64,000 nt of DNA from Candidatus Omnitrophota bacterium (GCA_015233335.1 JADFXX010000003.1:93694-157693); one strand, 5' to 3'; positions 10,621 through 27,415 are shown, counted from the first letter of the stretch. Made by a program: numbers and translations. The notes: a model not told the origin generated them from the letters alone.

Positions 10621-10652
10621 ATAAAAAAGGGCTATAGCATTTGCTATAGCCC
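10621..10652 (-). terminator. Rho-independent terminator ending the nuo-fprA transcription unit
   Basis: Stem gggctatagc(a)/(t)gctatagccc (10629-10652). On the minus strand it is followed by a U-run (10621-10628). Confidence 0.75.
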
Positions 10653-10680
10653 TTTCAAATTACCGGTTTACTAAAAATTT

Positions 10681-10773
10681 TTAGATCAAGACATTGGCCT
10701 CATCCCAGGCGAATGTAGCTTCTTCTTCCTGTTGGGCCTTCTGATTTGATTCTTGATTATGTGGTCCGTTCAT
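10681..10773 (-). CDS. Candidate 30-aa small protein
   Basis: Reads ATG...TAA, giving MNGPHNQESNQKAQQEEEATFAWDEANVLI. Strong SD (TAAGGAGGTG) lies about 8 nt upstream and a terminator about 30 nt downstream. Too short for the ORF track. Confidence 0.4.
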   Translation of the reverse strand: MNGPHNQESNQKAQQEEEATFAWDEANVLI

Positions 10774-10867
10774 AGGAATACACCTCCTTAAAGCCCCCAT
10801 GGGGAATTTTTCCCCTTATCTTGGGTTAGATTAGTAATTTCTAATATAACATGTTTTAGTTAAAAAG

Positions 10868-12226
10868 CTAGTACTTTTTTTTAGTAATTGAGATCATTTC
10901 GGAAACCTTGGTCATCTTCTCGCGAGGCTTACCTATACTTAGACCCATCATGATCTCATATGCATCTATTTTTTTCCAATCAATAAAGGTCACTGGAATG
11001 ATTCCGCGCTCTTTGAGCAATGAAAGCAGGTCCTGAGTGTCGGTATTTTTACATACGGGAAGATCCTTAAGATCTTCGAGCAACGAATGGACCGTCTCTT
11101 GCGCGCGTAATTTGTTGGTACCTATAACGCCGCTGGCTCCACTGGCAATCCAACCACAGACATAAAAACCCCCGATGACCTGCTCGCCTTCTAAAATACG
11201 TCCTTGATGGTTAGGTATTATTCCCTTTTGATATAAAAATGGCACTCCCTCAATCGGCTCTCCAACATAGCCAATGCTGGTAAAAAAGGCCCCACAACCG
11301 ATTTCCTCATATTGACCAATGCCATGCCCTTCCTTGTTGATCTCAAACCTGACTTTTTCGACCTTCGCGCCTCCTAAGATCTCTACAGGGGTTCTATTAA
11401 AATGCAAAACAAACCTTTTTTGGCGTGAAACATAAGGAAAAGACGTGAAAGATTTTAAAATACTAAAATTCTTCTGTCGTAAAGCATTAGCCGGACTTTC
11501 CAATTCCTTGGCAGAGACCGGGTCAAGTTCTAAATCTTTGGGATCAACAAAAGGGGAACAATCGGCTAATTGGGCCATTTCTTTAATCTCAGCTGGGGTA
11601 AAAGCCGCATAAAAAGCGCTACGGCGTCCATATACATGCACTTGTTCTATTTTACTTTCGGCCAAGGCATCTAAGGCATGCTGACAGATATCGGTATGAG
11701 CTAATTCTTCTTTAGTGCAGCATAAAATACGGGCAATATCAATAGCTACATTCCCCTGCCCCATAATAAGAGCTACTTTATTGGACAAGTCAAATTGACA
11801 GTCTTTAAATCTGGGATGGCCGTTATACCAGCCGATAAATTGGGAAGCCTTATAGTTTCCTATAAGATCCTCACCCTTAATACCTAAAGGCCTGTCTGTC
11901 TGGGCCCCTGTGCAAAAAATAATTGTATCATAAAATTCTTTTAGGCCAGAAACACTGATGTCATGGCCTATGTTAACGTTGCCAAAATACGAAAATCTAT
12001 TGTCTGAAGCGGTTTGTTCGAAGATTTTGATGACATTTTTTATTTTTTGATGGTCAGGAGATACCCCGTATCGTACAAGACCAAAGGGCGCGGGCAATTT
12101 TTCAAACAGGTCCACCTTAACAGGTATGTCTTGTTTTAATAATGTTTCGGCTGTATAAAAACCGGCTGGGCCGGCTCCGACAACGGCAACACGTAATGGT
12201 CTTTGGGGGGAAAATGGGATACTCAT
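10868..12226 (-). CDS. FprA/adrenodoxin-reductase-type NADPH:ferredoxin oxidoreductase
   Basis: VAVVGAGPAGFY dinucleotide motif, GVSPDHQKIK and a second Rossmann motif (IMGQGNVAIDIARIL). ATG 12226 overlaps the nuoN TGA as ATGA. Confidence 0.8.
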   Translation of the reverse strand: MSIPFSPQRPLRVAVVGAGPAGFYTAETLLKQDIPVKVDLFEKLPAPFGLVRYGVSPDHQKIKNVIKIFEQTASDNRFSYFGNVNIGHDISVSGLKEFYDTIIFCTGAQTDRPLGIKGEDLIGNYKASQFIGWYNGHPRFKDCQFDLSNKVALIMGQGNVAIDIARILCCTKEELAHTDICQHALDALAESKIEQVHVYGRRSAFYAAFTPAEIKEMAQLADCSPFVDPKDLELDPVSAKELESPANALRQKNFSILKSFTSFPYVSRQKRFVLHFNRTPVEILGGAKVEKVRFEINKEGHGIGQYEEIGCGAFFTSIGYVGEPIEGVPFLYQKGIIPNHQGRILEGEQVIGGFYVCGWIASGASGVIGTNKLRAQETVHSLLEDLKDLPVCKNTDTQDLLSLLKERGIIPVTFIDWKKIDAYEIMMGLSIGKPREKMTKVSEMISITKKKY

Positions 12227-13605
12227 AAATGGGGCATTAAAGTCACCGGCCACAATCCCAGAAAAATATTGGCGGCCACAGTTAGAACTAAAGTCATGAC
12301 GAGAATGACAGAAGCATTAATCGGCTTTACAACATTTTCTTGGCTCAAATACATGGCTTTGACAATACGCAGATAATAAAAAAGCGCCACTACTGAATTA
12401 AACACGGCGATAAACGCCAAAAGATACATTTTTGCATGGACGATAACAGCTATGACAACGAATTTTGCCATAAATCCGGATAGGGGCGGAAGACCCGCAA
12501 GGGACAAAAGCGAAACGGCCATGATCAGTGCCGCAAGAGGATTCTGACGGGAAAGTCCCGCATATTGCCGGATATCTTCTCTTTGACATAAGATAACACT
12601 GCCGAATGCTCCCACATTCATGAAAACATAAATAAACAAATAAAAAACCATGGCTTTAAACCCTGCCGTACTGCCTACACTTAAAGCCATAAGTATAAAA
12701 CCCGCATGAGCAATCGAAGAATAGGCTAATAGACGTTTGACATTGGTTTGCTTTAAAGCAATAAAATTTCCCGCGGTCATGGTGATCATCGCAAGCACTT
12801 CGACTAGTTTTGTCCAATGGACAGCTATGAAGAAAGGATGATGGAAAAAAACCCTTACCAATAACGCAAAACCCATGGCCTTGGGGCCTATGGAGAGAAA
12901 TAAGCTCACAGGTGTGGGAGCCCCTTGATAAGCATCCGGTGTTGCCATATAAAATGGCGCCAGCGAACATTTAAAGCTGATCCCGGTAAGAATAAAGACC
13001 AGTGCCAAAATAAAGGCTGCCCAATGGACATGCCCTGTGTGCAAAGCAAGGACTATATCAGAAATATTCAAGGACCCTGTCAGACCATAAATCATCGAAA
13101 CCCCATAAAGCATGATCCCTGTGGACAAGGCCCCGAATAAAAAATATTTAAGCCCGGCTTCGGAGGAAAAAATATCATTCTTAAAGAAAGCAATAAGGAT
13201 ATAGGAAATGATCGAGGTGGCTTCAACGGCAATATAGATCATCATTAGATTGCCCGAAGAAACAGCCAGCATCATTGAAAGGCACAAGCATAAAATAAAA
13301 AAATAGTACTCCCCCGTATCCTTTTGCTGAATCTTGTCTTCCCCTAGAGATAAAAGGATGATGAAAGCTGTACCCATTAGGATAAGCAATCGAAAGATAG
13401 CGGAAAGAGCATCGGCTTGAAGTAATCCAAAAAATGCTTTTGTGGAATTATATGAAGCCGCAGGTAATACACTTAAAGCCGACAACACAGCTACAAAAGC
13501 GATAACACCGGTAAATTTCCTTAATGACGGCGTGACCCCGGCAATCAAGGCTACCAGACTTAAGAGAAATAAAATAATTTCAGGGTATAAAAATTGAATA
13601 GTCAT
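12223..13605 (-). CDS. nuoN: NADH-quinone oxidoreductase subunit N
   Basis: Polytopic antiporter-like subunit in the last operon position after nuoM. Confidence 0.9.
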   Translation of the reverse strand: MTIQFLYPEIILFLLSLVALIAGVTPSLRKFTGVIAFVAVLSALSVLPAASYNSTKAFFGLLQADALSAIFRLLILMGTAFIILLSLGEDKIQQKDTGEYYFFILCLCLSMMLAVSSGNLMMIYIAVEATSIISYILIAFFKNDIFSSEAGLKYFLFGALSTGIMLYGVSMIYGLTGSLNISDIVLALHTGHVHWAAFILALVFILTGISFKCSLAPFYMATPDAYQGAPTPVSLFLSIGPKAMGFALLVRVFFHHPFFIAVHWTKLVEVLAMITMTAGNFIALKQTNVKRLLAYSSIAHAGFILMALSVGSTAGFKAMVFYLFIYVFMNVGAFGSVILCQREDIRQYAGLSRQNPLAALIMAVSLLSLAGLPPLSGFMAKFVVIAVIVHAKMYLLAFIAVFNSVVALFYYLRIVKAMYLSQENVVKPINASVILVMTLVLTVAANIFLGLWPVTLMPHL

Positions 13606-13608
13606 AAG

Positions 13609-15078
13609 CTAACTGATCCCGCCGCAAAATAAGCGGACCATCCCTTCAACAGCTGTTTGCTGGTAATGTAAAACCGCCTGAGGATAAAACCCTGCCGCTA
13701 GTGTGATAAGGATCAATGGTACAATTGTTATAAGTTCAAGGGGATTCATGTCCGGTAAATTTGAACAATTAGGGTTAACAGTACCGAGCAATACCCGCTG
13801 GATCATCAGCAAAAAATATCCGACAGTCACGATTAAACCCACAGCGGATAAAGCCACCAGACCCGGATAAAAGGAAAATGCGCCGGCCAGACTCATAAAT
13901 TCCCCGACAAATCCGCTTAAGCCCGGCAATCCCAAGGAGGCCAGCGATAAAAAGGTTAAACAAAAAGCATAGAAAGGCATGGGCTTGGACAAACCGCCAA
14001 ATTGACTGAATTCACGGGTATGCGCGCGATCGTACACAACACCCACGAGCAAAAACAAGCCTCCGGTAATAATGCCGTGATTGAACATTTCCAGAATCGC
14101 GCCGTTAAAACCTGTCGCGTTTAATGCCGCAGCACCCAAAAGCACAAAACCCATATGACTCACTGAAGAGTAGGCCACCATTTTCTTGAAATCAGTCTGG
14201 GCCATGGCCACACAAGCGCCATAGACGATATTGACAACGGCCAAAACAGCCAACGCGGGAGCCAAATTTACTGCCGCAATTTTAAACATGGGAAGACAAA
14301 TACGGAATATCCCGTACCCCCCCATTTTAAGCAAAACTCCTGCCAGCAAAACACTCACCGGTGTCGGCGCCTCCACATGAGCATCCGGTAGCCACGTGTG
14401 AAAAGGAAAGGCCGGGACTTTGACTGCAAAAGCCACGAAGAACGCGAAAAATAAAATCATCTGCCAGCGAGGATCTACGCCTCGGGAGATCAGTTCAAGG
14501 ATATTGAACGTATGCGGTTGGGAAAGGAAATATAGGGATAATATTCCGATCAGCATCAAAACCGAACCGGCCAAGGTGTACAGGAAAAATTTAACGGCCG
14601 CGTATTCCCGCCTAGGGCCTCCCCATATGCCAATGAGGAAATACATAGGAATGAGCACTACTTCCCAGAAAATATAAAACAACACCAAATCCAGCGCTAA
14701 AAATGTCCCCAGCATTCCTGTCATCAGCAAAAGATAAAAAATAAAATATTCTTTTACTCTTTCTTCTATTTTCCAGGAAGCCAGACAAGCCAAAAAACCT
14801 AAAAGGGATGTCAAGAAAATCAAGGCAAGGCTGAGACCGTCAACCCCTAGGAAATACCAGATGTTCCATCCAACAAGCCACGGTTTGTGCTCTACAAACT
14901 GCATGGCCGATTGACCGGTGTCAAAATTTATTAATAAATAGATGCTTAATAAAAAAACAATCCCCGTAACCAGTGTGGCCGTATATCTTATGCATTTAGG
15001 CAAATGTGAAGGGGTGATCAAAATCAAGAGAACACCGGCTAAAGGCAGAAAAATAATGAAAGATAATAATGGGATCAT
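13609..15078 (-). CDS. nuoM: NADH-quinone oxidoreductase subunit M
   Basis: Antiporter-like subunit. Start set to ATG 15078, an ATGA overlap with the nuoL stop. Confidence 0.9.
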   Translation of the reverse strand: MIPLLSFIIFLPLAGVLLILITPSHLPKCIRYTATLVTGIVFLLSIYLLINFDTGQSAMQFVEHKPWLVGWNIWYFLGVDGLSLALIFLTSLLGFLACLASWKIEERVKEYFIFYLLLMTGMLGTFLALDLVLFYIFWEVVLIPMYFLIGIWGGPRREYAAVKFFLYTLAGSVLMLIGILSLYFLSQPHTFNILELISRGVDPRWQMILFFAFFVAFAVKVPAFPFHTWLPDAHVEAPTPVSVLLAGVLLKMGGYGIFRICLPMFKIAAVNLAPALAVLAVVNIVYGACVAMAQTDFKKMVAYSSVSHMGFVLLGAAALNATGFNGAILEMFNHGIITGGLFLLVGVVYDRAHTREFSQFGGLSKPMPFYAFCLTFLSLASLGLPGLSGFVGEFMSLAGAFSFYPGLVALSAVGLIVTVGYFLLMIQRVLLGTVNPNCSNLPDMNPLELITIVPLILITLAAGFYPQAVLHYQQTAVEGMVRLFCGGIS

Positions 15079-16877
15079 AGTTTTAATAACCAAATAAGCA
15101 ATAAAACCACACCAAATACCTGGATCAGTAAATAGTTTTGAATCAGTCCAGTCTGGCTGCGACGAATAACACCTGAACAATATTGTGTCACAAAAGCCAT
15201 TGCGTTAACCAGACCGTCAACAATATTAGAATCAAAGTCAAACGAGGCACGGCACAGGCGAAGACAGGGTTGGATCAAGACCCTATCGTAAATTTCATCA
15301 ATGTAATATTTGTTGATTAAAAGCGTCTTCAATCCCTGCAAGGAATTCAGTACAGATAATGGAAGCAAGGTTATACGGCGCACATATATAAGATAAGCTG
15401 TCAAAAGACCGGTCAGGCTGACTAAGGTTGAGATCGTCATGATCATTCCGGCGCCATGAGATTCCCCTTCTATAAATCCTTCTTTGATCGGAGCCCCCCA
15501 AAAGCCGGCGCCAAAGGCAAAAATAGATAATACCATCAGTGGAATTGTCATGCTCATTGGCGATTCGTGGGGGTGCATTTGGCTGCGAGCCGTGCCAAAC
15601 AATACCAAGAAAATAAGCCGGGCCATATAAAAAGCGGTTAACAGGCTTGTTAAAAGGGCCAGTATTAAAAATACCGGATGATGATTCTGCCATGCAGTCA
15701 ATAAAATCTCGTCTTTAGACCAAAAACCGGCAAACGGAGGAACACCGGCCAAAGCAAGTGTACCGATACAGAAAGTGGTGCCGGTTATTTTCATTTTAGA
15801 AAATAGTCCGCCCATTTTTTGAATATCCTGGATACCAACGGAATGGATAACACTGCCTGCGCATAAGAATAATAGAGCTTTAAAAAAAGCATGGGTCATT
15901 AAATGAAATGTTCCCGCACTTACAGACCCCAAACCTAAACCCAGCATCATGAGTCCCAGCTGGCTGATGGTCGAATACGCTAGAACACGTTTAATATCAT
16001 TATTGACCGTGGCCATACTTGCGGCCATAAGAGCTGAAATCCCCCCTATCACTGCCACAGTCTGCAAGGCTATGGGATGTGCGACAAAAAGCGGAAAGCA
16101 GCGGGCCACTAAATAGACACCGGCCGCCACCATGGTCGCCGCATGGATCAGGGCGGAAACCGCGGTGGGACCTTCCATTGCATCCGGCAGCCATACGTGC
16201 AAAGGAAATTGGGCGGATTTACCCATGGCACCCATGAAGATCAAAATGGCCGCGATCGTCAAAAGAGGTTCGGGACCTGTTACGGATTTTAAATCAGTAA
16301 AATGAAACGTCCCGCAGGTAAAGAATAACAGCAGTATTCCGATCAAAAACCCTGTGTCACCGATTCGGGTTGTCACAAAAGCCTTAAGACCAGCAGCTGC
16401 CGCGGCAGGTCTTTCATGCCAAAAGGCGATCAACAAATAGGAACACAAACCGACACCTTCCCAAAAAATAAGCAAAAGAATAAAATTATCTGCAAGGACT
16501 AAGCCCAGCATGGAACTCATAAAAAGCGAAATGTAGGCAAAATACCGGGAAAATCTGGGATCATCATGCATATACCCAATAGAGTAGATCAGAATAAAGG
16601 TGCCGATGAAAGAAACAATTAAAAGCATCATTATAGAAAGCGGGTCAATGATGATACCAAAGTTCAAAGGTTTGCCGGCAATGACAAGCCATGTTCCCAA
16701 GTCATAAGATCCTGCCCCACAGCTAAAATCTTGATAAACTTTTAATGAAAAAATAAAAGAAAGCACGCAGGCACCTGTGGCAATATAGGCGCTGGCAATT
16801 TTTAACCGACGTCCGATAAGGATATCGATCACAAAGGCCAAAAACGGAAATAATGGTATAAAATGCGCGATATGCAT
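15075..16877 (-). CDS. nuoL: NADH-quinone oxidoreductase subunit L
   Basis: 600-aa antiporter-like subunit with a C-terminal extension, in conserved order. Confidence 0.9.
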   Translation of the reverse strand: MHIAHFIPLFPFLAFVIDILIGRRLKIASAYIATGACVLSFIFSLKVYQDFSCGAGSYDLGTWLVIAGKPLNFGIIIDPLSIMMLLIVSFIGTFILIYSIGYMHDDPRFSRYFAYISLFMSSMLGLVLADNFILLLIFWEGVGLCSYLLIAFWHERPAAAAAGLKAFVTTRIGDTGFLIGILLLFFTCGTFHFTDLKSVTGPEPLLTIAAILIFMGAMGKSAQFPLHVWLPDAMEGPTAVSALIHAATMVAAGVYLVARCFPLFVAHPIALQTVAVIGGISALMAASMATVNNDIKRVLAYSTISQLGLMMLGLGLGSVSAGTFHLMTHAFFKALLFLCAGSVIHSVGIQDIQKMGGLFSKMKITGTTFCIGTLALAGVPPFAGFWSKDEILLTAWQNHHPVFLILALLTSLLTAFYMARLIFLVLFGTARSQMHPHESPMSMTIPLMVLSIFAFGAGFWGAPIKEGFIEGESHGAGMIMTISTLVSLTGLLTAYLIYVRRITLLPLSVLNSLQGLKTLLINKYYIDEIYDRVLIQPCLRLCRASFDFDSNIVDGLVNAMAFVTQYCSGVIRRSQTGLIQNYLLIQVFGVVLLLIWLLKL

Positions 16878-16884
16878 GAACGAC

Positions 16885-17193
16885 TTAATCTTTCATTAAG
16901 GTTAAACCATCGGTAAATAGGGTCTTGGCATTGCGGTAAATAGCAATGATCAGGACCAGACCTACGACACTGGCAGCAGCCGCAATCGCAATCACAAACA
17001 GACTAAATATTTGCCCCAAAGCGTCTTTGGTCCCCAAATACTTATTGAAAGCGACCAAATTAATGTTGGCCGCGTTTAATATAAGCTCAATAGATATTAA
17101 AATCCCGATCACATTGCGACGGGTCAGGGCTCCGTAAATACCAACACAAAAAAGAAAAGCACTTAAAAGAGTAAAATATTCAAGAGGGATCAT
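16885..17193 (-). CDS. nuoK: NADH-quinone oxidoreductase subunit K
   Basis: 102 aa with 3 TM helices, located between nuoJ and nuoL. Confidence 0.9.
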   Translation of the reverse strand: MIPLEYFTLLSAFLFCVGIYGALTRRNVIGILISIELILNAANINLVAFNKYLGTKDALGQIFSLFVIAIAAAASVVGLVLIIAIYRNAKTLFTDGLTLMKD

Positions 17194-17678
17194 CTCTTGT
17201 CCTTTCCGATCACAATGGCCCCTACCATGGCGGCAAGCAGGATAACAGACATAAACTCAAAAGGAACAGCGTAATTCATCATAAGCGACCGGCCGATTTG
17301 AGCGATACTGGCCGCAGGCACGTTTAAAACAGTTTGCGCCCACGGATGTGCCGCAAAGACACGGGATAAAACACATAAAAGCAGCGCTGTAATAAAAAGC
17401 GCAAGGGCCCACTGTTTGCTGGTTTGGCGGATGCTTTTGTATCCGATGTTAGCCGTCAATTTAATGGCAAAAACAAACAGGGTGATGATTCCGCCGACAT
17501 AAACCAGGATTTGAATGACACCCAAAAAAGGCGCGTCCAAATAAAAATAAATCCCGGCGACACTTAACAGGGTCATGGCAAGCCATAAAGCGCAGTGAAA
17601 AATATCCCGTCCGGTGACGGCCATCACAGCAAAAACACAGACACCCGCCGCTATAAAATAAAATGCAGCCTCATTCAT
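17190..17678 (-). CDS. nuoJ: NADH-quinone oxidoreductase subunit J
   Basis: 162-aa membrane subunit in conserved position, with overlapping stop/start codons. Confidence 0.85.
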   Translation of the reverse strand: MNEAAFYFIAAGVCVFAVMAVTGRDIFHCALWLAMTLLSVAGIYFYLDAPFLGVIQILVYVGGIITLFVFAIKLTANIGYKSIRQTSKQWALALFITALLLCVLSRVFAAHPWAQTVLNVPAASIAQIGRSLMMNYAVPFEFMSVILLAAMVGAIVIGKDKR

Positions 17679-18112
17679 GAGCTTTCACCCCCGTCCACAT
17701 GCTTGTATTTATCCTTGCGCATTAAGTCAATCGTAAGTAAATCTTTATGAGCGAAATAGGAGACCTCATACATTTTATTGAGAAAAATGGCATCTGTCGG
17801 ACAAATTTCCCCGCAAAACCCGCAAAAACAACAAAGCTCGCCATTAAAGACAAATTTAGTAATGGTTTTCGTTTTATTGTCCTCTAACACTTTATGTTCC
17901 AACTCTAAAGCCGCTGTGGGACAGATCTTAATGCATTGATAACAGATCACACATTTCTCTGGGACTAAATCCACCATCCCCCGAAAGCGGTCGGTCATCG
18001 GTTTTTTAACAATAGGGTAATTCAAAGTGACCGGCTTTTTCAACATGTTCTTGAAAGTCACTTTAAAACCTTTTAGGATGCTATAGAAACCTGTAAAAAG
18101 TCGTATCATCAT
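17675..18112 (-). CDS. nuoI: NADH-quinone oxidoreductase subunit I (2x[4Fe-4S])
   Basis: Two CxxCxxCxxxCP motifs (CVICYQCIKICP and CCFCGFCGEICP). Confidence 0.9.
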   Translation of the reverse strand: MMIRLFTGFYSILKGFKVTFKNMLKKPVTLNYPIVKKPMTDRFRGMVDLVPEKCVICYQCIKICPTAALELEHKVLEDNKTKTITKFVFNGELCCFCGFCGEICPTDAIFLNKMYEVSYFAHKDLLTIDLMRKDKYKHVDGGESS

Positions 18113-19053
18113 TTAACCATAAACCAGCCGCTGATCAGCAAATTAAGTAAAGCCATCGGTGTTAAAACTTTCCAAGCAAAAGACATCATCTGGTCCATCC
18201 TGACCCGGGGAAGCGTCCAGCGCATCCACATCAAAAAAGCCACAAGCCCGTAGGATTTTAATAAAAACCATACGAGCCCCGGCAAGAAAGGCCCCTGCCA
18301 GCCGCCTAAAAAAAGCGTGGTAGCGATCGCTGAAATAATAAACATGTTGGTGTATTCAGCAACAAAGAACATGGCAAACTTCATGCCTGAATATTCCGTA
18401 TGATAACCGGCGACTAATTCTGACTCGGCTTCGGGGATATCAAAAGGAACACGGTTAACTTCAGCGGTAGCTGAGATAAAATAGATCAAGAATGCTAAGG
18501 TCAGATGGGGCTTTAAAATAAACCAGCCGTGTTCCTGCGCTGCGACAATTCCCTGCATGGACATGGTGCCTGATTGCATGACGACTAATAGCACTGAAAG
18601 CAAAAGCGGTACTTCATAACTGATGATCTGGGCAGCAGAACGCATGCCACCTAAAAGCGAATATTTATTGTTGGAACCCCAGCCTGCCATGAAAATGCCA
18701 AGCACACAAATTGAGGTGACCGAACAAACGTAAAGGACCCCGACATTAAGGTCAAGCGCGATCCATTTACTGCTAAAGGGTATGACCAGAAACGCCATGA
18801 CCACCGGCACCGTAACAAAGAAAGGCGCCAGCCACCAAGAGAGGAAATCAACACCTTTTGGGACAATATCTTCTTTTAATAAAAGCTTAATCGTGTCCGC
18901 AACGGGCTGTAAAGTGCCATGAAAGCCGGTCATCATAGGCCCCATCCGGTTTTGGATCCATGCTGAAATTTTGCGTTCCAGCCAAATGGAAAACATCGCT
19001 GAAACCGCGATAAATCCGAGCACAGCCAAGCCTTTTAAAAAAATCACGCTCAT
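18109..19053 (-). CDS. nuoH: NADH-quinone oxidoreductase subunit H
   Basis: NuoH/ND1-like polytopic protein. Start set to ATG 19053, an ATGA overlap with the nuoD stop. Confidence 0.9.
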   Translation of the reverse strand: MSVIFLKGLAVLGFIAVSAMFSIWLERKISAWIQNRMGPMMTGFHGTLQPVADTIKLLLKEDIVPKGVDFLSWWLAPFFVTVPVVMAFLVIPFSSKWIALDLNVGVLYVCSVTSICVLGIFMAGWGSNNKYSLLGGMRSAAQIISYEVPLLLSVLLVVMQSGTMSMQGIVAAQEHGWFILKPHLTLAFLIYFISATAEVNRVPFDIPEAESELVAGYHTEYSGMKFAMFFVAEYTNMFIISAIATTLFLGGWQGPFLPGLVWFLLKSYGLVAFLMWMRWTLPRVRMDQMMSFAWKVLTPMALLNLLISGWFMVK

Positions 19054-20141
19054 CGGTCGATTTCCCCCATCACAATATCCATACTTCCCAGAACGCATAC
19101 AGCATCAGAAATATTAAGCCCCTTGACCAATTCTGAAAGTGCGCCCAAATTAGAAAAAGAGGGTGATCGGATTTTGCAGCGGGTGGGATTAAATCCACCT
19201 TCAGCCACTAAATAAAATCCTAGCTCACCTCGTGGATTCTCGGTTCGCACATACGCCTCCCCTGTGCCCCGAAATACCCTGTTAACCTTGGAAACCGGAT
19301 TACCTTCCGGGATGCCACCGATCGCCTGCTCTACGATCCGCAGGCTTTGGGATATCTCATCAAGCCTCACTTTAAAACGGTCCCATGAATCTCCATTAGC
19401 TCCCACAGGGACATCAAAATCGAATTTGTCATACATGGAATAGGGTTCTTCTTTTCGAATGTCCCACTTGATACCGCTGGCCCGCAACATAGGGCCTGTC
19501 ACACTGTAGCTGCGGGCGACTTCTTTGGATAAAATGCCGATGTTCTTTGAACGGGCTAAGAAGATGACGTTATAGGTCAGAAGCTCGTTGTATTCAATTA
19601 ATTGTTTGCGTTCATAAGCGATGAAATCTTTGATAATCTGTTCTGTCCTGGCCGGGATATCGGCACTGACACCGCCAATACGCATGTAATTATAGGTCAA
19701 GCGTCCCCCGCAGATGCTGTCAAAAAGGTCGACAATTTTTTCTCTGTCTCGAAAGGCATAAAAAAGCGGTGTCGCATATGCCCCTAAGTCCTGAGCAAAG
19801 GTGCCGATGGCGACTAAGTGGCTTACGGCACGGTTGAGTTCTGCGATAATGACCCTTAAGTATTGAGCCCGGTCAGGAACCGCGATATTCAGCAATTTTT
19901 CGACGGCCAGACAATATCCTAGATTATTGTTCATGGAAGCTAGATAATCCAAGCGGTCCGTGAAAGGGATAAACTGGGTGTACGTGCGGTTTTCGGCGAT
20001 TTTCTCTATACTTCGGTGGAGATACCCTAAATGTGGTTTGCAATCCACAACGATCTCACCGTCCATTTTAAGTTCTAAATACAAGACACCGTGTGTTGAG
20101 GGATGCTGCGGCCCCATGTTAACGGTCAACAATTCGCCCAT
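19050..20141 (-). CDS. nuoD: NADH-quinone oxidoreductase subunit D
   Basis: MGPQHPSTHGVL N-terminus and [NiFe]-hydrogenase large-subunit-like fold signature. Confidence 0.92.
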   Translation of the reverse strand: MGELLTVNMGPQHPSTHGVLYLELKMDGEIVVDCKPHLGYLHRSIEKIAENRTYTQFIPFTDRLDYLASMNNNLGYCLAVEKLLNIAVPDRAQYLRVIIAELNRAVSHLVAIGTFAQDLGAYATPLFYAFRDREKIVDLFDSICGGRLTYNYMRIGGVSADIPARTEQIIKDFIAYERKQLIEYNELLTYNVIFLARSKNIGILSKEVARSYSVTGPMLRASGIKWDIRKEEPYSMYDKFDFDVPVGANGDSWDRFKVRLDEISQSLRIVEQAIGGIPEGNPVSKVNRVFRGTGEAYVRTENPRGELGFYLVAEGGFNPTRCKIRSPSFSNLGALSELVKGLNISDAVCVLGSMDIVMGEIDR

Positions 20142-20208
20142 AATTACTTCCTCAGAACAACTATTTCAAATAATTACCTAGAGAAGTGCCGACTCCGTAA
20201 TGTCCATA

Positions 20209-20682
20209 TTAGGAATTCGGCCCTTTAAGTCCTGTGCTTTGGGGGCGCGGGATAAAATCCGCCCTCGTAAAATTCTTACGCAAGGGAAAATCAGTCCAAT
20301 CATCCGGGTTCATGATGCGCCTTAAATCCGGATGGTTCTGAAACTTAATCCCAAAAAGGTCATACACTTCCCTCTCCAACCAATCCGCTGAGCGCCATAG
20401 ACCGCTTAAGGTTTCAACTGTCAGGTCATCCAAAGTAACAAAAGTTTTAAGGGTCAGCATAAAATGATGGGATGTGGAGTATAAAAGATAAATAAGTTCC
20501 AGCTTATCTCGACGGTCCACGGCAGTCACGCAATGGCAATTTTCAAAATCCATCTCAATTTTAAGGAAACCGGCCACATCCAAAAGCGCTGTCTTTGGGA
20601 TCACAAGGCCATGAGGCGTCTCTTCGAGCGAAAGGTCCGGAAACTTATTTTTTATTTTTTGCAGAATGTCGTTGTTTTTCAT
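20209..20682 (-). CDS. nuoC: NADH-quinone oxidoreductase subunit C
   Basis: 30-kDa subunit-like (ERE.YDLFGI.F motif: LEREVYDLFGIKF). Confidence 0.9.
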   Translation of the reverse strand: MKNNDILQKIKNKFPDLSLEETPHGLVIPKTALLDVAGFLKIEMDFENCHCVTAVDRRDKLELIYLLYSTSHHFMLTLKTFVTLDDLTVETLSGLWRSADWLEREVYDLFGIKFQNHPDLRRIMNPDDWTDFPLRKNFTRADFIPRPQSTGLKGPNS

Positions 20683-21175
20683 TTTTAATCTTGTCTTGTA
20701 ATTTCATGATGGCATGTAATAAGTTTTCGGGACGCGGCGGACAACCGGCCACATAGACATCCACAGGAACTCCCAATACTTCTGTGCCCCTGATGACCGA
20801 ATAAGTGTCATAATAAAAAATCCCACCGCCTATGGCGCAATTACCCATGGCAATCACATATTTAGGTTCCGGCATCTGGGCATAAAGTTTTTTTAAGCAG
20901 TCCCCCATTTTGACACAAATGGTGCCCGCCACGATCATCACATCGCACTGGCGCGGAGAACCGCGGAATACCCCGGAACCGATACGGTCAATATCAAAAT
21001 TGGAAGCACCGGTCGCCATCATCTCGATGGCACAGCAGGAAAGCCCAAAAGTCAAGGGCCATATTGAGGAACCCTTAGCCCATTTCATCAGATCTTCACT
21101 TTTGGCTAAAATGATCTCTCCTCCCGGAAACTTCTCTATAATACGGGCTCCCGGGATTTTTTCATTTATTGCCAT
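20645..21175 (-). CDS. nuoB: NADH-quinone oxidoreductase subunit B
   Basis: N2-cluster Cys pattern (GLSCCAIEMM, GNCAIGGG, GCPPRPE). ATG 21175 is preferred over the TTG at 21196. Confidence 0.92.
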   Translation of the reverse strand: MAINEKIPGARIIEKFPGGEIILAKSEDLMKWAKGSSIWPLTFGLSCCAIEMMATGASNFDIDRIGSGVFRGSPRQCDVMIVAGTICVKMGDCLKKLYAQMPEPKYVIAMGNCAIGGGIFYYDTYSVIRGTEVLGVPVDVYVAGCPPRPENLLHAIMKLQDKIKNEKQRHSAKNKK

Positions 21176-21522
21176 TGGAGCGCTCCCTTTTTCCAAGCGT
21201 AATAAAGTCCAAGGCCCAAAACAAGGATAAAAGCCGCCATTTCAAAAAAAGCCACCTGCCCTAACTGGCGGAACACCACGGCCCACGGCATGGTAAATAG
21301 GATTTCCACATCAAAAATGACAAAAATAAGGGCAAATAAATAATAGCGGACATTAAATTGGATGCGGGAATCCCCTTGAATGATCTCTCCGCATTCATAA
21401 GGCGAATTTTTAGCTTCACTGGGAGCTTTGGGACGGAATAAAAATGAAACGGCAAAGGCAGAGCCAACGAAAGCTATACCTAAAAAAAGAAAAATGATTA
21501 TATAGTAATAATTGGGTATCAT
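21166..21522 (-). CDS. nuoA: NADH-quinone oxidoreductase subunit A
   Basis: 118 aa with 3 TM helices and a PYECG motif; first gene of the nuo block. Confidence 0.9.
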   Translation of the reverse strand: MIPNYYYIIIFLFLGIAFVGSAFAVSFLFRPKAPSEAKNSPYECGEIIQGDSRIQFNVRYYLFALIFVIFDVEILFTMPWAVVFRQLGQVAFFEMAAFILVLGLGLYYAWKKGALQWQ

Positions 21523-21531: not shown

Positions 21532-21951
21532 TTAGCGCTTAAACTCCGTTGCTAAAATTAAATGCTTGATCCCTGACTTTGATGCCGCATCAATGACCTG
21601 AACAACATAGTCATATTTCACATTACGGTCCCCATTAATGATAATGGAAGGGTCCCTATAAGCCTTAATGATACTTTTTAATTTAAATTTGAAGACATCC
21701 AGATCAAATTTAAGATTATATTTCTGGTTCTCCAGATAAACTTCACCATTGGATGTGATGCTGACATTAATGTCTTTACTCTCCACAGGCTGTTGATTGC
21801 TGGAAACCTGCGGTAAAGCAATTTTAATGCTGGAACGGTAGATCAAAGGTGTAGTAACTATAAAAACTATCAACAGCACTAAAACAACGTCTGTAAAAGG
21901 GGCGATATTAATGTCCGAGATCAATTTGGTGTTTCTCTGGGGTCTTCTCAT
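21532..21951 (-). CDS. exbD: ExbD/TolR-family biopolymer transport protein
   Basis: Single N-terminal TM (INIAPFTDVVLVLLIVF) and an ExbD-like periplasmic domain. Confidence 0.85.
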   Translation of the reverse strand: MRRPQRNTKLISDINIAPFTDVVLVLLIVFIVTTPLIYRSSIKIALPQVSSNQQPVESKDINVSITSNGEVYLENQKYNLKFDLDVFKFKLKSIIKAYRDPSIIINGDRNVKYDYVVQVIDAASKSGIKHLILATEFKR

Positions 21952-22577
21952 TATTTTTTAACACACAGTAAGTCAACTAATTCAGAGGCGGCCAATTCCA
22001 TATCTACTATAAAGGTGTCAATTTTACGGCTAAACCAGTTAAAACATAGGACAGCGGGAATAGCTACCAAAAGGCCTGCGGCCGTGCACACCAATGCTTC
22101 CGCAATGCCCACGGTGACAACATCCATGCCACCGCTGCCAACCCTTGAAATGTCATTAAAAGCCCGCATAATGCCAATAACTGTGCCCAAAAGACCGATA
22201 TACACCGCTGTCCCTCCAATGGACCCGACAATGCCGGTAAAACGTTCAAGTTTAACCGTTTCGACCGTAATCTCCCTTTCCATGGCATTAGATATAATTT
22301 TTTCATCATGCCCGTAAAGGTTAAGGCCTGCTAATGCGACACGGGCCGATGGAGTATCGATATTCTTGCAAATACCAACAGCGTTGAGCATCTGGCCGCG
22401 GCCGCACTCTTTGCGGATCTGTTCCATTAAGCTCACTCTGGAAAGCCGTGAACGGCGAGAGTAATAAAGCACACGTTCGATAATAACAGCAATAGAAATG
22501 ATCGAACAGAGAATAAGGATGTACATTGTAAATCCGCCGGCAGCAATAATTTCAAAAATATTTTGACCTTTAAACAT
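21951..22577 (-). CDS. exbB: ExbB/TolQ/MotA-family proton channel
   Basis: MotA/TolQ/ExbB-like 3-TM protein whose stop overlaps the exbD start. Confidence 0.85.
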   Translation of the reverse strand: MFKGQNIFEIIAAGGFTMYILILCSIISIAVIIERVLYYSRRSRLSRVSLMEQIRKECGRGQMLNAVGICKNIDTPSARVALAGLNLYGHDEKIISNAMEREITVETVKLERFTGIVGSIGGTAVYIGLLGTVIGIMRAFNDISRVGSGGMDVVTVGIAEALVCTAAGLLVAIPAVLCFNWFSRKIDTFIVDMELAASELVDLLCVKK

Positions 22578-22806
22578 GATTTCTCCTAAAAAAAGACATT
22601 ATGCCCTGTTTTGTAAATAGTAGTTTTTAATTCTAGCTGAATCACCTGGAGAAAACAAGAAAAATACAGAAATTTGACCGTATTCCCTATTGTTCTCATC
22701 GGGTTAATAAGTGCTAAACCAATGAATTGAAGGAATGGTCTTGACTTACAAGAGTATTATGGCAAAATATCACAATTAAAATGTTCAACGTCATTAGGAG
22801 AAAGAC

Positions 22807-23940
22807 ATGACCATAGGCATACCCAAAGAAACATTTCCCGGAGAACATCGGGTCGCATTCATACCTTCGTCCGTTGATCGTATAGTCAAAAAAGGCGCCC
22901 AAGTTATTATAGAAGCAGGTCTGGGGGCTTCCATCGGCATTGCGGATGAAGAATATAAAAAAGCAGGTGCCGGCATTGAAACTAACCGACAAGCACTCCT
23001 ATCCTCTGCTGATATCACCCTGCGCTTGCGAAAACCGCCTATCGACGAAGTCAGCCTTTTAAAAAAAGGTTCTATTCATATTAGTTTTCTTGATCCCTTT
23101 AATGAAAAAACGCTCGTTCAGGCTTTGGCTCAAAATCATATCAGCGCGTTTAGCATGGAAATGATCCCGCGTACGACAAGAGCTCAAAAGATGGATGCTT
23201 TAAGTTCTCAGGCAAATTTGGCCGGCTATGTCACGGTTATTTTAGCTGCCGAGCGGCTTCCCAAAATATTCCCTATGCTGATGACACCTGCAGGTACCAT
23301 AGCGCCAGCCCGTGTATTTATTATCGGTGCCGGTGTCGCAGGCTTACAGGCGATCGCAACCGCAAAACGTCTGGGAGCGCGTGTAGAAGCTTTCGACACC
23401 CGCGCGGTTGTCAAAGAACAGGTGCAATCTTTAGGAGCTAAATTCGTTGAAATTGATCTGGGAGAAACAGGCCAAACGGCTCAGGGTTATGCCAAGGCTT
23501 TAAGTCCTGAGCAATTAGAAAAACAGCGGCAGGGAATGGCCAAGATTTGTGCCCAATCTGATGTGATCATAACTACTGCTCAATTATTCGGCCGCCGTGC
23601 ACCGGTGGTTTTAACCAAGGATATGCTTGCCCAGATGAAACCCGGGACTATTATTGTGGATATGGCGGTTGAATCCGGCGGTAATGTGGAAGGTTCTAAA
23701 GTTAATGAGGAAGTCCTTACTTCAAATGGTGTGCGAATCCTCGGAATAGGCAATCTTCCCGGACGTGTCGCGATCCATGCGTCGCAAATGTATTCCGCTA
23801 ATTTGCATAATTTGCTTGAAGAGTATTGGGATAAGGACAGCAAAGCTTTTAAGATCAATCTTGAAGATGAAATTATTAAAGGCGCTTTAATTACTTATCA
23901 GGGACAAATTGTTAACGAAATGGTTAAGGGAATGAAGTAA
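22807..23940 (+). CDS. pntAA: NAD(P) transhydrogenase subunit alpha part 1
   Basis: Alanine-dehydrogenase/PNT-like dI domain (IIGAGVAGLQAIATAKRLGA). SD AGGAG lies 6 nt upstream. Confidence 0.92.
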   Translation: MTIGIPKETFPGEHRVAFIPSSVDRIVKKGAQVIIEAGLGASIGIADEEYKKAGAGIETNRQALLSSADITLRLRKPPIDEVSLLKKGSIHISFLDPFNEKTLVQALAQNHISAFSMEMIPRTTRAQKMDALSSQANLAGYVTVILAAERLPKIFPMLMTPAGTIAPARVFIIGAGVAGLQAIATAKRLGARVEAFDTRAVVKEQVQSLGAKFVEIDLGETGQTAQGYAKALSPEQLEKQRQGMAKICAQSDVIITTAQLFGRRAPVVLTKDMLAQMKPGTIIVDMAVESGGNVEGSKVNEEVLTSNGVRILGIGNLPGRVAIHASQMYSANLHNLLEEYWDKDSKAFKINLEDEIIKGALITYQGQIVNEMVKGMK

Positions 23941-23949
23941 GGAGCTATT

Positions 23950-24231
23950 ATGGAACTTATTTATTTGTTGTTTATTTTAGTGTTGTCTGTGTTCTTGGGT
24001 TTTGCCTTAATTTCGCGTGTGCCTCCCCTGCTGCATACGCCTTTGATGTCTGAAGCTAATGCTATTTGCGGGATCATTATCATTGGGGCTTTGGTCTCTG
24101 CAGGAGTTGATGCCAATAGCACTTTGACCATTATATTAGGGACTTCTGCCGTTGCTTTAGCTACTTTTAACGTTGTCGGCGGCTATTTAGTCACTGAACG
24201 CATGCTTAAAATGTTCAAGAAAAAAGGATAA
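23950..24231 (+). CDS. pntAB: NAD(P) transhydrogenase subunit alpha part 2 (membrane)
   Basis: 93-aa hydrophobic protein between pntAA and pntB. Confidence 0.88.
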   Translation: MELIYLLFILVLSVFLGFALISRVPPLLHTPLMSEANAICGIIIIGALVSAGVDANSTLTIILGTSAVALATFNVVGGYLVTERMLKMFKKKG

Positions 24232-24234
24232 AGA

Positions 24235-25617
24235 ATGAATAATGAATTTCTTATGAATTTGATTTACATCATCAGCTCTTGTTTATTTGCCTTTGGGTTA
24301 AAATTCCTAGGATCGCCGGTTACAGCCCGCCGCGGCAACATACTATCTGCTTCAGGGATGTTTTTAGCTATTATAGCCACATTGGCAGGCAGTCATGTCA
24401 TTAGTTTTCAGTGGATCCTTATAGGTATTCTGATCGGAGCAAGCTTAGGCGCTTTAGTAGCCTTTAAAGCCGCTATGACCCAGATGCCAGAAATGATCGC
24501 CCTTTTGCATGGTTGCGGGGCCCTAGCCAGCGTTTTTATCGGCTGGATCGCTTATTGTGTGCATGGCGCCACTGATTTAACTAATACCATTACCCTTTAT
24601 TTATCCATTGTTATCGGCGGCCTGACCTTTACCGGCAGTGCCATCGCCTGGGGCAAGCTAAGCGAACATATTCCCGGCAAACCAATCTTATTTACCGGTC
24701 AAAAATGGCTGAACACAGGGATCATTTCTGCCATTCTTGTTCTTGGTGTTATGTTTATCATGCAACCGGCCAGATATGATCTGTTTCTGATTATTCTTGG
24801 TCTTTCCTGTCTTTTTGGTATTTTTATGGTCATACCCATCGGCGGTGCGGATATGCCGGTGGTTATTTCTGTCTTAAACAGCTATTCTGGTGTAGTTGCT
24901 TGCACGACCGGTTTTGTTATTCATAACACCCTTTTGATCGTGGTGGGATCGCTGGTCGGGGCCAACGGTATGATCTTAAGTATTATCATGTGTAAGGCCA
25001 TGAACCGTTCCATCACCAATGTGCTATTCGGAGCTTTCGGCAGTGTGGTTAAAAAATCTGCGACAGGGGAAAAGAAAGAAGCCAAGGCCATCTCAGTCGA
25101 GGACGCTTTCTTGATATTGGAAAACGCTAAATCCGTTGTTATTATTCCCGGCTATGGTTTGGCCGTGGCCCAAGCCCAGCATGCGGTACGGGAATTAGGT
25201 GAATTCTTGGAGAAAAACGGCTGTGATGTTAAATATGCCATTCATCCTGTGGCAGGCCGTATGCCCGGCCACATGAACGTATTGCTTGCGGAAGCGAATA
25301 TTTCATACGACCAGCTGATGGAAATGGATGCGATCAATCCTTTGATGGAAAACGCGGATGCGGCGATCGTGATCGGCGCCAATGACGTTGTTAATCCAGC
25401 CTCACGCCATGACAAGTCTAGCCCTATTTACGGGATGCCCATCATTAACGCCGACAAGGCTAAAACTGTCTTTGTCCTCAAGCGTTCCATGGCGACCGGT
25501 TTTGCCGGCATTGAAAATGAATTGTTCTATTACGATAATTGCCGCATGATCTTTGGCGATGCCAAACAAACTGTGCAGGCTCTAGTCGCAGAATTCAAGA
25601 GCGGTCAATCCCGTTAA
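24235..25617 (+). CDS. pntB: NAD(P) transhydrogenase subunit beta
   Basis: Membrane dII domain plus C-terminal dIII domain (PGYGLAVAQAQH...HPVAGRMPGHMNVLLAEA). Confidence 0.92.
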   Translation: MNNEFLMNLIYIISSCLFAFGLKFLGSPVTARRGNILSASGMFLAIIATLAGSHVISFQWILIGILIGASLGALVAFKAAMTQMPEMIALLHGCGALASVFIGWIAYCVHGATDLTNTITLYLSIVIGGLTFTGSAIAWGKLSEHIPGKPILFTGQKWLNTGIISAILVLGVMFIMQPARYDLFLIILGLSCLFGIFMVIPIGGADMPVVISVLNSYSGVVACTTGFVIHNTLLIVVGSLVGANGMILSIIMCKAMNRSITNVLFGAFGSVVKKSATGEKKEAKAISVEDAFLILENAKSVVIIPGYGLAVAQAQHAVRELGEFLEKNGCDVKYAIHPVAGRMPGHMNVLLAEANISYDQLMEMDAINPLMENADAAIVIGANDVVNPASRHDKSSPIYGMPIINADKAKTVFVLKRSMATGFAGIENELFYYDNCRMIFGDAKQTVQALVAEFKSGQSR

Positions 25618-27393: not shown

Positions 27394-27415
27394 AAAATTT
27401 CCTCCTGAGATAAAT

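What the first reader, a model, noticed from the sequence alone, without database searches (positions are those of the whole stretch)
10868..21522. Eleven-subunit complex I operon lacking nuoEFG, translationally coupled to an FprA-type NADPH:ferredoxin reductase
The gene order is nuoA-B-C-D-H-I-J-K-L-M-N. The nuoD stop and nuoH start overlap (ATGA at 19050-19053), so there is no room for the NADH-oxidising N-module (NuoE/F/G).

Immediately after nuoN, again with an ATGA overlap (12223-12226), comes a 452-aa FprA/adrenodoxin-reductase-like flavoprotein (GAGPAGFY, GVSPDHQ). It is followed by a tiny ORF and a terminator.

Eleven-subunit complexes in cyanobacteria and some other lineages are thought to accept electrons from ferredoxin. 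Tight coupling to an NADPH:ferredoxin reductase suggests two options. One is an NADPH to ferredoxin to quinone route. The other is FprA acting as a surrogate input module. The pnt transhydrogenase nearby fits an NADPH-centred scheme.
Basis: partly seen in the sequence, partly recalled or inferred. Interest (0 to 1): 0.6.

Follow-up and report, generated by a model that had tools for sequence, protein, structure and literature searches.

The report
NuoEFG-less complex I operon plus FprA
An uncultured Omnitrophota bacterium carries an ordinary 11-gene complex I operon without the NADH-binding module, followed by an overlapping NADPH:ferredoxin reductase gene; relatives show the pairing arose late, is confined to one subgroup and can be lost, so it hints at a ferredoxin/NADPH electron route rather than a new enzyme.

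Summary
The minus strand carries nuoA-B-C-D-H-I-J-K-L-M-N (21522-12223). nuoD and nuoH overlap by 4 bp, so nuoEFG cannot lie between them. A 452-aa AdR/FprA-type flavoprotein gene (12226-10868) overlaps the nuoN stop in ATGA. pntAA-AB-B lies nearby (22807-25617). The contig is a Candidatus Omnitrophota MAG.

Context in about 100 related loci changes the reading:
- 11-gene nuo operons are usual in Omnitrophota and are routinely read as ferredoxin-dependent.
- nuoN-fprA adjacency occurs in only one Omnitrophota subclade (FprA 56-78% identical, spacing -4 to +103 bp). It is absent from 67 FprA loci in other phyla.
- fprA and pnt belong to an older frame: pnt | exbB-exbD-fprA-minigene…queH. The nuo genes sit between exbD and fprA.
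- The linkage breaks both ways. One relative deleted fprA cleanly and kept nuo. Others have a group-4 [NiFe] hydrogenase instead of nuo beside fprA.

Best reading: a ferredoxin-fed complex I co-expressed with a soluble NADP(H):ferredoxin oxidoreductase. FprA as a docked input module is unlikely.

The "tiny ORF" is a separate, highly conserved 30-aa gene with its own promoter. Whether nuoEFG exists elsewhere in the genome could not be tested.

The parts
21166..21522 (-). nuoA (118 aa)
   Evidence: Pfam Oxidored_q4, E 2.5e-36. The ATG lies 9 bp after the exbD stop.
20645..21175 (-). nuoB (176 aa from ATG 21175; the ORF opens at TTG 21196)
   Evidence: Pfam Oxidored_q6. The four Cys ligands of cluster N2 are present: SCCAIEM, GNCAIGGG, AGCPP. 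Orthologues in L002, L004 and L107 are called at 176 aa.
20209..20682 (-). nuoC (157 aa)
   Evidence: TIGR01961 NuoC_fam scores 116 bits, just under its 122-bit cut-off.
19050..20141 (-). nuoD (363 aa, short form)
   Evidence: TIGR01962 scores 466 bits against a 459-bit cut-off. The quinone-site residues are present (GPQHPSTHG, RLDYLAS). It lacks the NiFe-binding cysteines seen in a true hydrogenase subunit. Best solved relatives are NdhH and Nqo4.
18109..19053 (-). nuoH (314 aa from ATG 19053); its start overlaps the nuoD stop by 4 bp
   Evidence: NF004741 scores 355 bits against a 305-bit cut-off. The ATGA overlap leaves no room for nuoEFG.
17675..18112 (-). nuoI (145 aa)
   Evidence: Best matched by NuoI models. 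It has two CxxCxxCxxxCP motifs.
17190..17678 (-). nuoJ (162 aa)
   Evidence: Best matched by NuoJ models.
16885..17193 (-). nuoK (102 aa)
   Evidence: NF004320 scores 96.6 bits against a 57-bit cut-off.
15075..16877 (-). nuoL (600 aa)
   Evidence: NF005141 scores 674 bits against a 556-bit cut-off.
13609..15078 (-). nuoM (489 aa from ATG 15078); 4-bp overlap with the nuoL stop
   Evidence: TIGR01972 scores 594 bits against a 264-bit cut-off, with the match beginning at ORF residue 35-39.
12223..13605 (-). nuoN (460 aa)
   Evidence: TIGR01770 scores 406 bits against a 333-bit cut-off.
10868..12226 (-). fprA: AdR/FprA-type NADPH:ferredoxin oxidoreductase (452 aa); its ATG overlaps the nuoN TGA
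   Evidence: phmmer against 1lqt gives E 8e-95 and against 1cjc E 9e-93, both full length. The overlap was read. The FAD and NADP motifs, the Arg-Arg pair and the catalytic His and Glu are conserved.
10681..10773 (-). Independent 30-aa mini-gene (MNGPHNQESNQKAQQEEEATFAWDEANVLI)
   Evidence: The peptide is 26-30/30 identical across loci whose FprA is only 54-78% identical. DNA differences are largely third-codon-position changes. It has a conserved Shine-Dalgarno AAGGAGGT and a conserved promoter-like block upstream. No Pfam, NCBIfam or Rfam family matches.
10625..10656 (-). Intrinsic terminator (14-bp stem followed by a T run)
   Evidence: sequence read.
21532..22577 (-). exbB (22577-21951) and exbD (21951-21532), directly upstream of nuoA and probably co-transcribed
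   Evidence: Pfam MotA_ExbB and ExbD. The gap to nuoA is 9 bp. In sister-clade loci exbD is followed directly by fprA.
22807..25617 (+). pntAA, pntAB and pntB, a proton-translocating transhydrogenase transcribed divergently from exbB
   Evidence: Pfam AlaDh_PNT_N/C, PNTB_4TM and PNTB. pnt lies next to fprA in L007, L009, L010, L015 and L095, none of which has nuo there.

Best explanation
**What it is.** The region encodes a complete, intact complex I without its N-module (NuoABCDHIJKLMN), the usual form in Omnitrophota.

**How it most likely works (inferred).**
- The complex accepts electrons one at a time at the NuoI iron-sulfur clusters from a soluble low-potential carrier, most likely ferredoxin.
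- It passes them through cluster N2 to quinone and pumps protons through NuoL, M and N.

**The next gene.** It is a genuine soluble AdR/FprA-type NADPH:ferredoxin oxidoreductase.

**History of the pairing.**
- fprA was already at this locus, in a frame of pntAB | exbB-exbD-fprA-minigene…queH.
- In the ancestor of one Omnitrophota subclade the nuo operon came to lie between exbD and fprA.
- Spacing between nuoN and fprA then tightened in several lineages, down to a 4-bp overlap.

**Consequence.** FprA is co-expressed with the complex and links the NADP(H) pool to the ferredoxin pool that feeds it. The route would be NADPH <-> ferredoxin -> quinone, with PntAB connecting NADH to NADPH.

**Shown versus inferred.** Gene identities, motifs, overlaps, phylogenetic distribution and the order of events are shown. 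Ferredoxin as the donor, the direction of FprA flux and co-transcription are inferred.
For: **Gene content and intact motifs:**

**FprA identity:**

**Linkage conserved.**
- nuoN-fprA lies on the same strand in the window and in L002/L092, L004, L005/L091, L088, L090, L093 and L107. Gaps are -4, +97/103, +80, +4, +6, +8, +2 to 8 and -4 bp.
- L002, L004 and L107 have different flanking genes but keep the 12 genes together.
- Contig-length matching between searches suggests about 11 linked clusters (an inference).

**Order of events.**
- FprA neighbour-joining tree: core linked clade 199/200 bootstraps, with L107 169/200, sister clade 191/200, both together 200/200.
- The sister clade has exbB-exbD-fprA without nuo.
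- The next outgroup has pnt next to fprA.

**Neighbourhood.** It is NADP(H)-themed: pntAB and NAD kinase at 6456-7313.

**Recurrence.** In L001 and L103-L105 the neighbour of fprA is a group-4 [NiFe] hydrogenase. That is another membrane complex of the ferredoxin-dependent kind.

**Literature.**
- nuoEFG-less operons are generally read as ferredoxin-dependent (PMC6349859, PMC7509429, PMC11238625).
- No designated electron-donor partner has been found for them (PMC3144371).
Against: - No ferredoxin gene sits in the operon.
- NADPH (about -320 mV) to a typical ferredoxin (about -400 mV or lower) is uphill. That step needs a high NADPH/NADP+ ratio or a high-potential ferredoxin (general knowledge, not tested here).
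- FprA orthologues occur widely without nuo next to them, so FprA has functions independent of complex I.
- In L002 and L004 the 80-103-bp spacers contain promoter-like or hairpin elements, so fprA may be separately regulated there.
- fprA is cleanly deleted in L089 while nuoL, M and N stay intact.
- Adjacency could simply reflect where the operon landed.
Confidence: 0.55

Rival explanations
1. **Positional coincidence.** FprA is a housekeeping NADPH:ferredoxin/flavodoxin reductase serving assimilatory or Fe-S and radical enzymes. The nuo operon merely landed in the short exbD-fprA spacer. Tight spacing reflects genome compaction, not shared function.
For: - fprA holds the same syntenic position without nuo in the sister clade (L006, L007, L008, L020, L095).
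- FprA homologues occur in many phyla with no nuo neighbour: 0 of 67 loci.
- The linkage is lost in both directions: L089 and L001, L103-L106.
- L002 and L004 have long spacers with possible independent signals.
- Sulfate-assimilation and siroheme genes and a NAD kinase lie downstream in the window. A NIR_SIR reductase lies next to fprA in L006.
Against: - The 12-gene block survives rearrangement of both flanks (L002, L004, L107).
- Two lineages show a 4-bp overlap (the window and L107). Several others show gaps of 2-8 bp.
- The neighbour that replaces nuo in L001-type loci is again a complex-I-family enzyme of the ferredoxin-dependent kind.
Confidence: 0.28
2. **Docked input module.** FprA binds the NuoI/B/C/D face and acts as a one-subunit replacement for the N-module. 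The result would be a 12-subunit proton-pumping NADPH:quinone oxidoreductase.
For: - The overlap between nuoN and fprA has the same ATGA style as the overlaps between true subunits.
- The core linked clade has replaced the otherwise near-invariant GWIKRGP motif with GWI[AGQ][SHQYC]GA. It also changed R316T and E129Q.
- The electron donor of 11-subunit complexes is an open question (PMC3144371, PMC11238625).
Against: - fprA is cleanly deleted in L089 with nuo intact.
- Close FprA orthologues function without adjacent nuo.
- The basal linked member L107 keeps the ancestral GWIKRGP motif, so the motif change came after the linkage.
- Neither FprA nor NuoB, C, D or I carries an extra domain or extension compared with unlinked relatives.
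- FprA has no iron-sulfur relay.
- pI does not differ systematically between linked and unlinked FprA.
Confidence: 0.06
3. **Reverse operation.** The complex uses proton-motive force to drive electrons from quinol up to ferredoxin, and FprA then makes NADPH for biosynthesis.
For: - The gene content is compatible with this.
- pnt and NAD kinase nearby indicate a demand for NADPH.
- Complex I is reversible in principle (general knowledge).
Against: - Nothing in the window points to a lithotrophic lifestyle that would need reverse electron flow.
- PntAB already supplies NADPH from NADH at much lower cost.
Confidence: 0.07

Closest known systems
Eleven-subunit, nuoEFG-less complex I-like enzymes of anaerobes and candidate phyla (for example Desulfitobacterium hafniense, Saganbacteria, Ignavibacteriae)
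   Same: - The nuoABCDHIJKLMN order is the same, with nuoD directly followed by nuoH.
- Q-module cofactor motifs are conserved.
- The donor is presumed to be ferredoxin (PMC11238625, PMC6349859, PMC7509429, PMC3144371).
   Different: - Here, and in one Omnitrophota subclade, an AdR-type NADPH:ferredoxin reductase gene is appended to nuoN.
- I found no report of such a partner gene in the papers searched.
Cyanobacterial and chloroplast NDH-1 (photosynthetic complex I; PDB 6hum, 7eu3 and others)
   Same: - It has eleven Nuo-homologous core subunits and no N-module.
- Ferredoxin is the donor (established knowledge).
- NuoD of the window scores marginally best against NdhH (358 and 355 bits, versus 341 for T. 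thermophilus Nqo4).
   Different: - No extra ORF lies inside the operon that could be an NdhS, NdhO or NdhV ferredoxin-docking subunit or another oxygenic-specific subunit.
- The margin over mitochondrial and bacterial homologues is small.
- An old proposal held that plant-type FNR docks on NDH as an NADPH input (recalled from memory, not checked). It involved a different, unrelated FNR fold.
Fpo/Fqo F420H2 dehydrogenases with FpoF, and Campylobacter complex I in which NuoE/F are replaced
   Same: Same concept: a conserved 11-subunit core with a lineage-specific input protein encoded with it (general knowledge).
   Different: - The Fpo models score far below their cut-offs here, and no FpoF-like gene is present.
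- FprA lacks the iron-sulfur clusters of FpoF.
- The linkage is dispensable in relatives.
Mycobacterium tuberculosis FprA and bovine adrenodoxin reductase (1lqt, 1cjc)
   Same: - Homology is full length (E about 1e-94).
- Conserved features include the FAD GxGxxG motif, the NADP GxGxxA motif, the Arg-Arg pair for the 2'-phosphate, and the catalytic His and Glu.
   Different: - Those enzymes feed ferredoxins or adrenodoxin for P450 systems and are not encoded with complex I.
- The core linked clade has lost the conserved Lys-Arg of the GWIKRGP motif.

Membership tests
N-module-less 11-subunit complex I (Nuo11) | All eleven core genes nuoA, B, C, D, H, I, J, K, L, M, N are present and intact | tested here: met
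   Six subunits score above curated cut-offs. The others are best matched by Nuo models.
N-module-less 11-subunit complex I (Nuo11) | No nuoE, nuoF or nuoG inside the operon | tested here: met
   The nuoD stop and nuoH start overlap by 4 bp. The same holds in L002, L004, L107, L108 and L109.
N-module-less 11-subunit complex I (Nuo11) | No N-module encoded elsewhere in the genome | not testable with these tools
   No ORF of at least 150 aa scanned across the 64-kb window carries a NuoE, F or G domain.
N-module-less 11-subunit complex I (Nuo11) | Q-module cofactor and quinone-site residues: N2 cysteines in NuoB, two 4Fe-4S motifs in NuoI, His and Tyr in NuoD | tested here: met
   Read from the translations.
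N-module-less 11-subunit complex I (Nuo11) | Reduced ferredoxin as the electron donor | not testable with these tools
   This is a biochemical property. It is inferred only by analogy.
AdR/FprA-type ferredoxin-NADP+ reductase | Full-length two-domain homology to solved FprA and AdR | tested here: met
   Query residues 9-447 align to 1lqt residues 2-453 at E 8e-95. 1cjc gives E 9e-93.
AdR/FprA-type ferredoxin-NADP+ reductase | FAD GxGxxG, NADP GxGxxA, the Arg-Arg 2'-phosphate pair, and the catalytic His (PDH) and Glu | tested here: met
   - GAGPAG, GQGNVA, GRR, PDH and E213 are aligned.
- These positions are invariant among 20 orthologues.
- The residue roles are recalled from the FprA and AdR literature.
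AdR/FprA-type ferredoxin-NADP+ reductase | NADPH-dependent ferredoxin reduction | not testable with these tools
   This requires an enzyme assay.
Cyanobacterial-type NDH-1 | Ferredoxin-docking accessory subunits (NdhS, NdhV, NdhO) | tested here: inconclusive
   No additional ORF lies between nuoA and fprA. Small proteins elsewhere in the genome were not searched.
Fpo/Fqo F420H2 dehydrogenase | An FpoF/FqoF input subunit and Fpo-specific subunit signatures | tested here: not met
   The Fpo exception models score far below their cut-offs, for example FpoD 367 against 600 and FpoL 502 against 1050. No FpoF-like ORF is in the operon.
Group 4 membrane-bound [NiFe] hydrogenase | The CxxC NiFe-ligand motifs at both ends of the large subunit | tested here: not met
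   The window's NuoD lacks these motifs. The L001 large subunit has RVCGICS and DPCISCAER.

The most novel reading that the evidence does not exclude
In this Omnitrophota subclade FprA has been recruited as a single-subunit, FAD-only input module. It would dock on NuoI/B/C/D and turn the 11-subunit core into a proton-pumping NADPH:quinone oxidoreductase. The loss of the conserved Lys-Arg in the GWIKRGP motif would be an adaptation to the new partner.
Probability: 0.06. Interest if true: 0.85.

Novelty: new variant of a known kind. Interest (0 to 1): 0.38.

Why it matters
**The open question.** The electron donor of 11-subunit, NuoEFG-less complex I enzymes is unresolved, and no designated partner protein has been found for them (PMC3144371, PMC11238625).

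**What this adds.** An NADPH:ferredoxin reductase gene appended to nuoN and conserved across a clade is a concrete, testable candidate link. It suggests the complex draws on a ferredoxin pool that the cell balances against NADPH.

**A practical caution.** Published metabolic reconstructions of Omnitrophota treat their complex I as NADH-dependent, using one marker domain (PMC10066038). The operons seen here lack the NADH module.

**Limits.** The comparative evidence shows the pairing is late, local and dispensable. It is therefore a useful lead rather than a new class of enzyme.

Tried and rejected
- **pI and charge of FprA.** No systematic difference between nuo-linked and unlinked FprA.
- **Clade-specific substitutions as a signature of linkage.** The GWIKRGP change does not coincide with acquisition of nuo, because basal L107 keeps the ancestral motif. 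The substituted residues could not be mapped in 3D because no coordinates are available.
- **Conserved region after fprA as a non-coding RNA.** Rfam gave only sub-threshold hits on the terminator hairpin. The substitution pattern is largely synonymous, which points to a peptide.
- **The mini-peptide.** Pfam and NCBIfam found nothing. A 44-aa padded query found only 7 clusters, all unnamed.
- **Locating the source assembly.** The look-up of encoding contigs had no record. The listing of cluster members gave only the protein accession.
- **Biopython bootstrap.** It timed out and was replaced by a numpy-based NJ bootstrap.
- **Metagenome scan with NuoN.** It returned only 7 close loci.
- **L078.** This Actinomycetes locus has a divergently oriented 14-gene-type nuo cluster next to fprA. 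I treat it as chance.
- **Literature.** Searches found no prior description of nuo-fprA linkage.

Full report
**1. Observation**

The window comes from a Candidatus Omnitrophota MAG. Its FprA is 100% identical to NCBI protein MBF0503958.1, which lies on a 169-kb contig.

On the minus strand the ORFs run nuoA (21522-21166), nuoB (21175-20645), nuoC (20682-20209), nuoD (20141-19050), nuoH (19053-18109), nuoI (18112-17675), nuoJ (17678-17190), nuoK (17193-16885), nuoL (16877-15075), nuoM (15078-13609) and nuoN (13605-12223).
- NCBIfam and TIGRFAM models identify every subunit. NuoD, H, K, L, M and N score above curated cut-offs.
- Pfam covers NuoA and NuoB.
- The nuoD stop and nuoH start share ATGA, so nothing can be encoded between them.
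- 4-bp overlaps also join H/I, I/J, J/K and L/M.

The cofactor and quinone-site residues are intact.
- NuoB has SCCAIEM, GNCAIGGG and AGCPP.
- NuoI has two CxxCxxCxxxCP motifs.
- NuoD has GPQHPSTHG and RLDYLAS. It lacks the NiFe cysteines seen in a genuine hydrogenase large subunit from a related locus.

**2. The flavoprotein**

The fprA ATG (12226) overlaps the nuoN TGA (12223), read directly.
- The 452-aa product aligns over its whole length with M. tuberculosis FprA (1lqt, E 8e-95) and bovine adrenodoxin reductase (1cjc, E 9e-93).
- Glutamate-synthase-like proteins match only the N-terminal 170 residues.
- The FAD and NADP glycine motifs, the Arg-Arg pair and the PDH histidine are invariant among 20 orthologues.
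- It is therefore a bona fide AdR-type NADPH:ferredoxin oxidoreductase.

**3. Surroundings**

- exbB-exbD lies directly upstream. The exbD stop is 9 bp before the nuoA ATG.
- pntAA-AB-B is transcribed divergently from exbB.
- Downstream of fprA lie a 30-codon ORF, a strong terminator, a PG-binding protein, queH, a NUDIX gene, a HAD hydrolase, a NAD kinase, mutY and sulfate-assimilation and siroheme genes.
- No ORF of at least 150 aa scanned in the 64 kb has a NuoE, F or G domain.

**4. Is the linkage conserved?**

Starting from FprA:
- Contigs carrying orthologues of 62-75% identity have nuoA..N followed by fprA: L002, L004 and L005.
- Orthologues of about 58% identity sit in the same frame without nuo: pnt | exbB-exbD-fprA-small ORF…PG-binding-CSD-queH-NUDIX, in L006 and L007.
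- One 74% orthologue (L001) instead has a divergently oriented group-4 [NiFe] hydrogenase cluster upstream.

A scan of one genome per species with an FprA profile gave 80 loci from many phyla.
- tblastn with the window's proteins found same-strand nuo-fprA adjacency in none of the 80.
- Thirteen of them are Omnitrophota or MAGs labelled Planctomycetales, and several of these have pnt or exbBD next to fprA.
- The other 67 have neither.
- One Actinomycetes locus (L078) has a divergent 14-gene-type nuo cluster, which I treat as chance.

Starting from NuoN:
- Of seven close metagenome loci, five have fprA right after nuoN. One ends too early to tell. One (L089) lacks fprA.
- L107 (NuoN 61%, FprA 56% identical) has exbB-exbD-PMT-nuoA..N-fprA, again with a 4-bp overlap.
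- More distant Omnitrophota operons, L108 and L109 (NuoN 47-49%), are also 11-gene and nuoEFG-less but have no fprA.

Spacing between nuoN and fprA ranges from -4 to +103 bp. The long spacers in L002 and L004 hold promoter-like or hairpin elements.

**5. Order of events**

A neighbour-joining tree of FprA gives the following.

| Grouping | Bootstrap support (of 200) |
|---|---|
| Core linked clade | 199 |
| Core linked clade plus L107 | 169 |
| Sister clade (exbBD-fprA, no nuo) | 191 |
| Linked and sister clades together | 200 |

- The outgroups have pnt next to fprA.
- The most parsimonious history is that nuo came to lie between exbD and fprA once, in the ancestor of the linked clade.
- L001-type loci are nested inside the linked clade (inner clade 200/200), so they lost nuo from this site secondarily.

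L089 is a clean deletion of fprA.
- Its nuoN end matches the window's nuoN-fprA junction.
- That is joined to a sequence matching the last 20 or so bases of the window's fprA.
- The mini-gene follows.
- nuoL, M and N remain intact at 78-87% identity.

**6. Interpretation**

- The 11-gene operon is ordinary for this phylum and for many anaerobes. The literature reads such operons as ferredoxin-dependent (PMC6349859, PMC7509429, PMC11238625).
- The new element is the appended FprA gene.
- In favour of some functional benefit from co-expression: the linkage survives flank rearrangements and has tightened to an overlap in at least two lineages.
- Against FprA as an obligate docked subunit: its late origin, its narrow distribution and its loss in both directions.
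- I therefore favour a soluble FprA that equilibrates NADP(H) with the ferredoxin pool feeding the complex (confidence 0.55).
- Rivals are positional coincidence (0.28), reverse operation (0.07) and direct docking (0.06).
- The pnt gene is linked to fprA more anciently than to nuo.

**7. Limits**

- I could not search the rest of the genome for nuoEFG.
- I could not predict complexes.
- I could not test transcription or activity.
- The thermodynamic arguments and the residue roles in FprA and AdR rest on general knowledge, not on tests made here.

Noticed in passing
window 10681-10773 (-), with promoter-like block about 10800-10860 and terminator 10625-10656: **The 'tiny ORF' is an independent, highly conserved 30-aa acidic mini-gene** (MNGPHNQESNQKAQQEEEATFAWDEANVLI).
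- It is 26-30/30 identical in 19 related loci whose FprA is only 54-78% identical.
- Differences are largely synonymous.
- It has its own Shine-Dalgarno, a conserved upstream block and its own terminator.
- It always follows fprA, or nuoN where fprA is deleted.
- It matches no known family.
   Followed up: partly
window 36497-39389 (-): RT 36497-37711, TR 37671-37779, VR 38427-38535 inside ORF 38397-39389: **A diversity-generating retroelement.**
- It has a reverse transcriptase and a repeat pair of about 110 nt.
- 12 of the 14 mismatches are A in the template copy against G, C or T in the copy at the 3' end of a gene with a C-terminal Lcl_C (lectin-like) domain.
- The template repeat is rich in AAC codons.
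   Followed up: partly
L001 1-9725; also L103-L105: **In a sub-lineage nested within the nuo-linked clade, nuo is replaced next to fprA.** Its place is taken by a divergently oriented group-4 membrane-bound [NiFe] hydrogenase cluster. The large subunit has RVCGICS and DPCISCAER. The cluster also carries Mrp-like subunits, HycI and HypA.
   Followed up: partly
L089 4780-5030: **A natural, near-precise deletion of fprA.** It removes fprA from between nuoN and the mini-gene. nuoL, M and N remain intact.
   Followed up: yes
window 21532-25617; L007, L009, L010, L015, L095: **pntAB and fprA form a conserved, divergently oriented pair** (with or without exbBD between them) in Omnitrophota-like MAGs that have no nuo at the locus. 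A NAD kinase (window 6456-7313) is also kept nearby in L005. This gives a conserved NADP(H)-themed neighbourhood.
   Followed up: partly
FprA residues about 358-364 (GWIASGA in the window), 129 and 316: **Clade-specific substitutions in FprA.**
- The core nuo-linked clade has replaced the otherwise near-invariant GWIKRGP motif by GWI[AGQ][SHQYC]GA.
- It also changed E129Q and R316T.
- Most members carry a deletion of about 10 residues near position 300.
- Basal L107 keeps the ancestral motif.
- The structural meaning is unknown.
   Followed up: partly
window 28771-32754 (-) and 26036-28361: A xanthine-dehydrogenase/CO-dehydrogenase-family molybdenum hydroxylase (large, 2Fe-2S and FAD subunits) with XdhC and MobA-like maturation genes. 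It is syntenic with L007.
   Followed up: no
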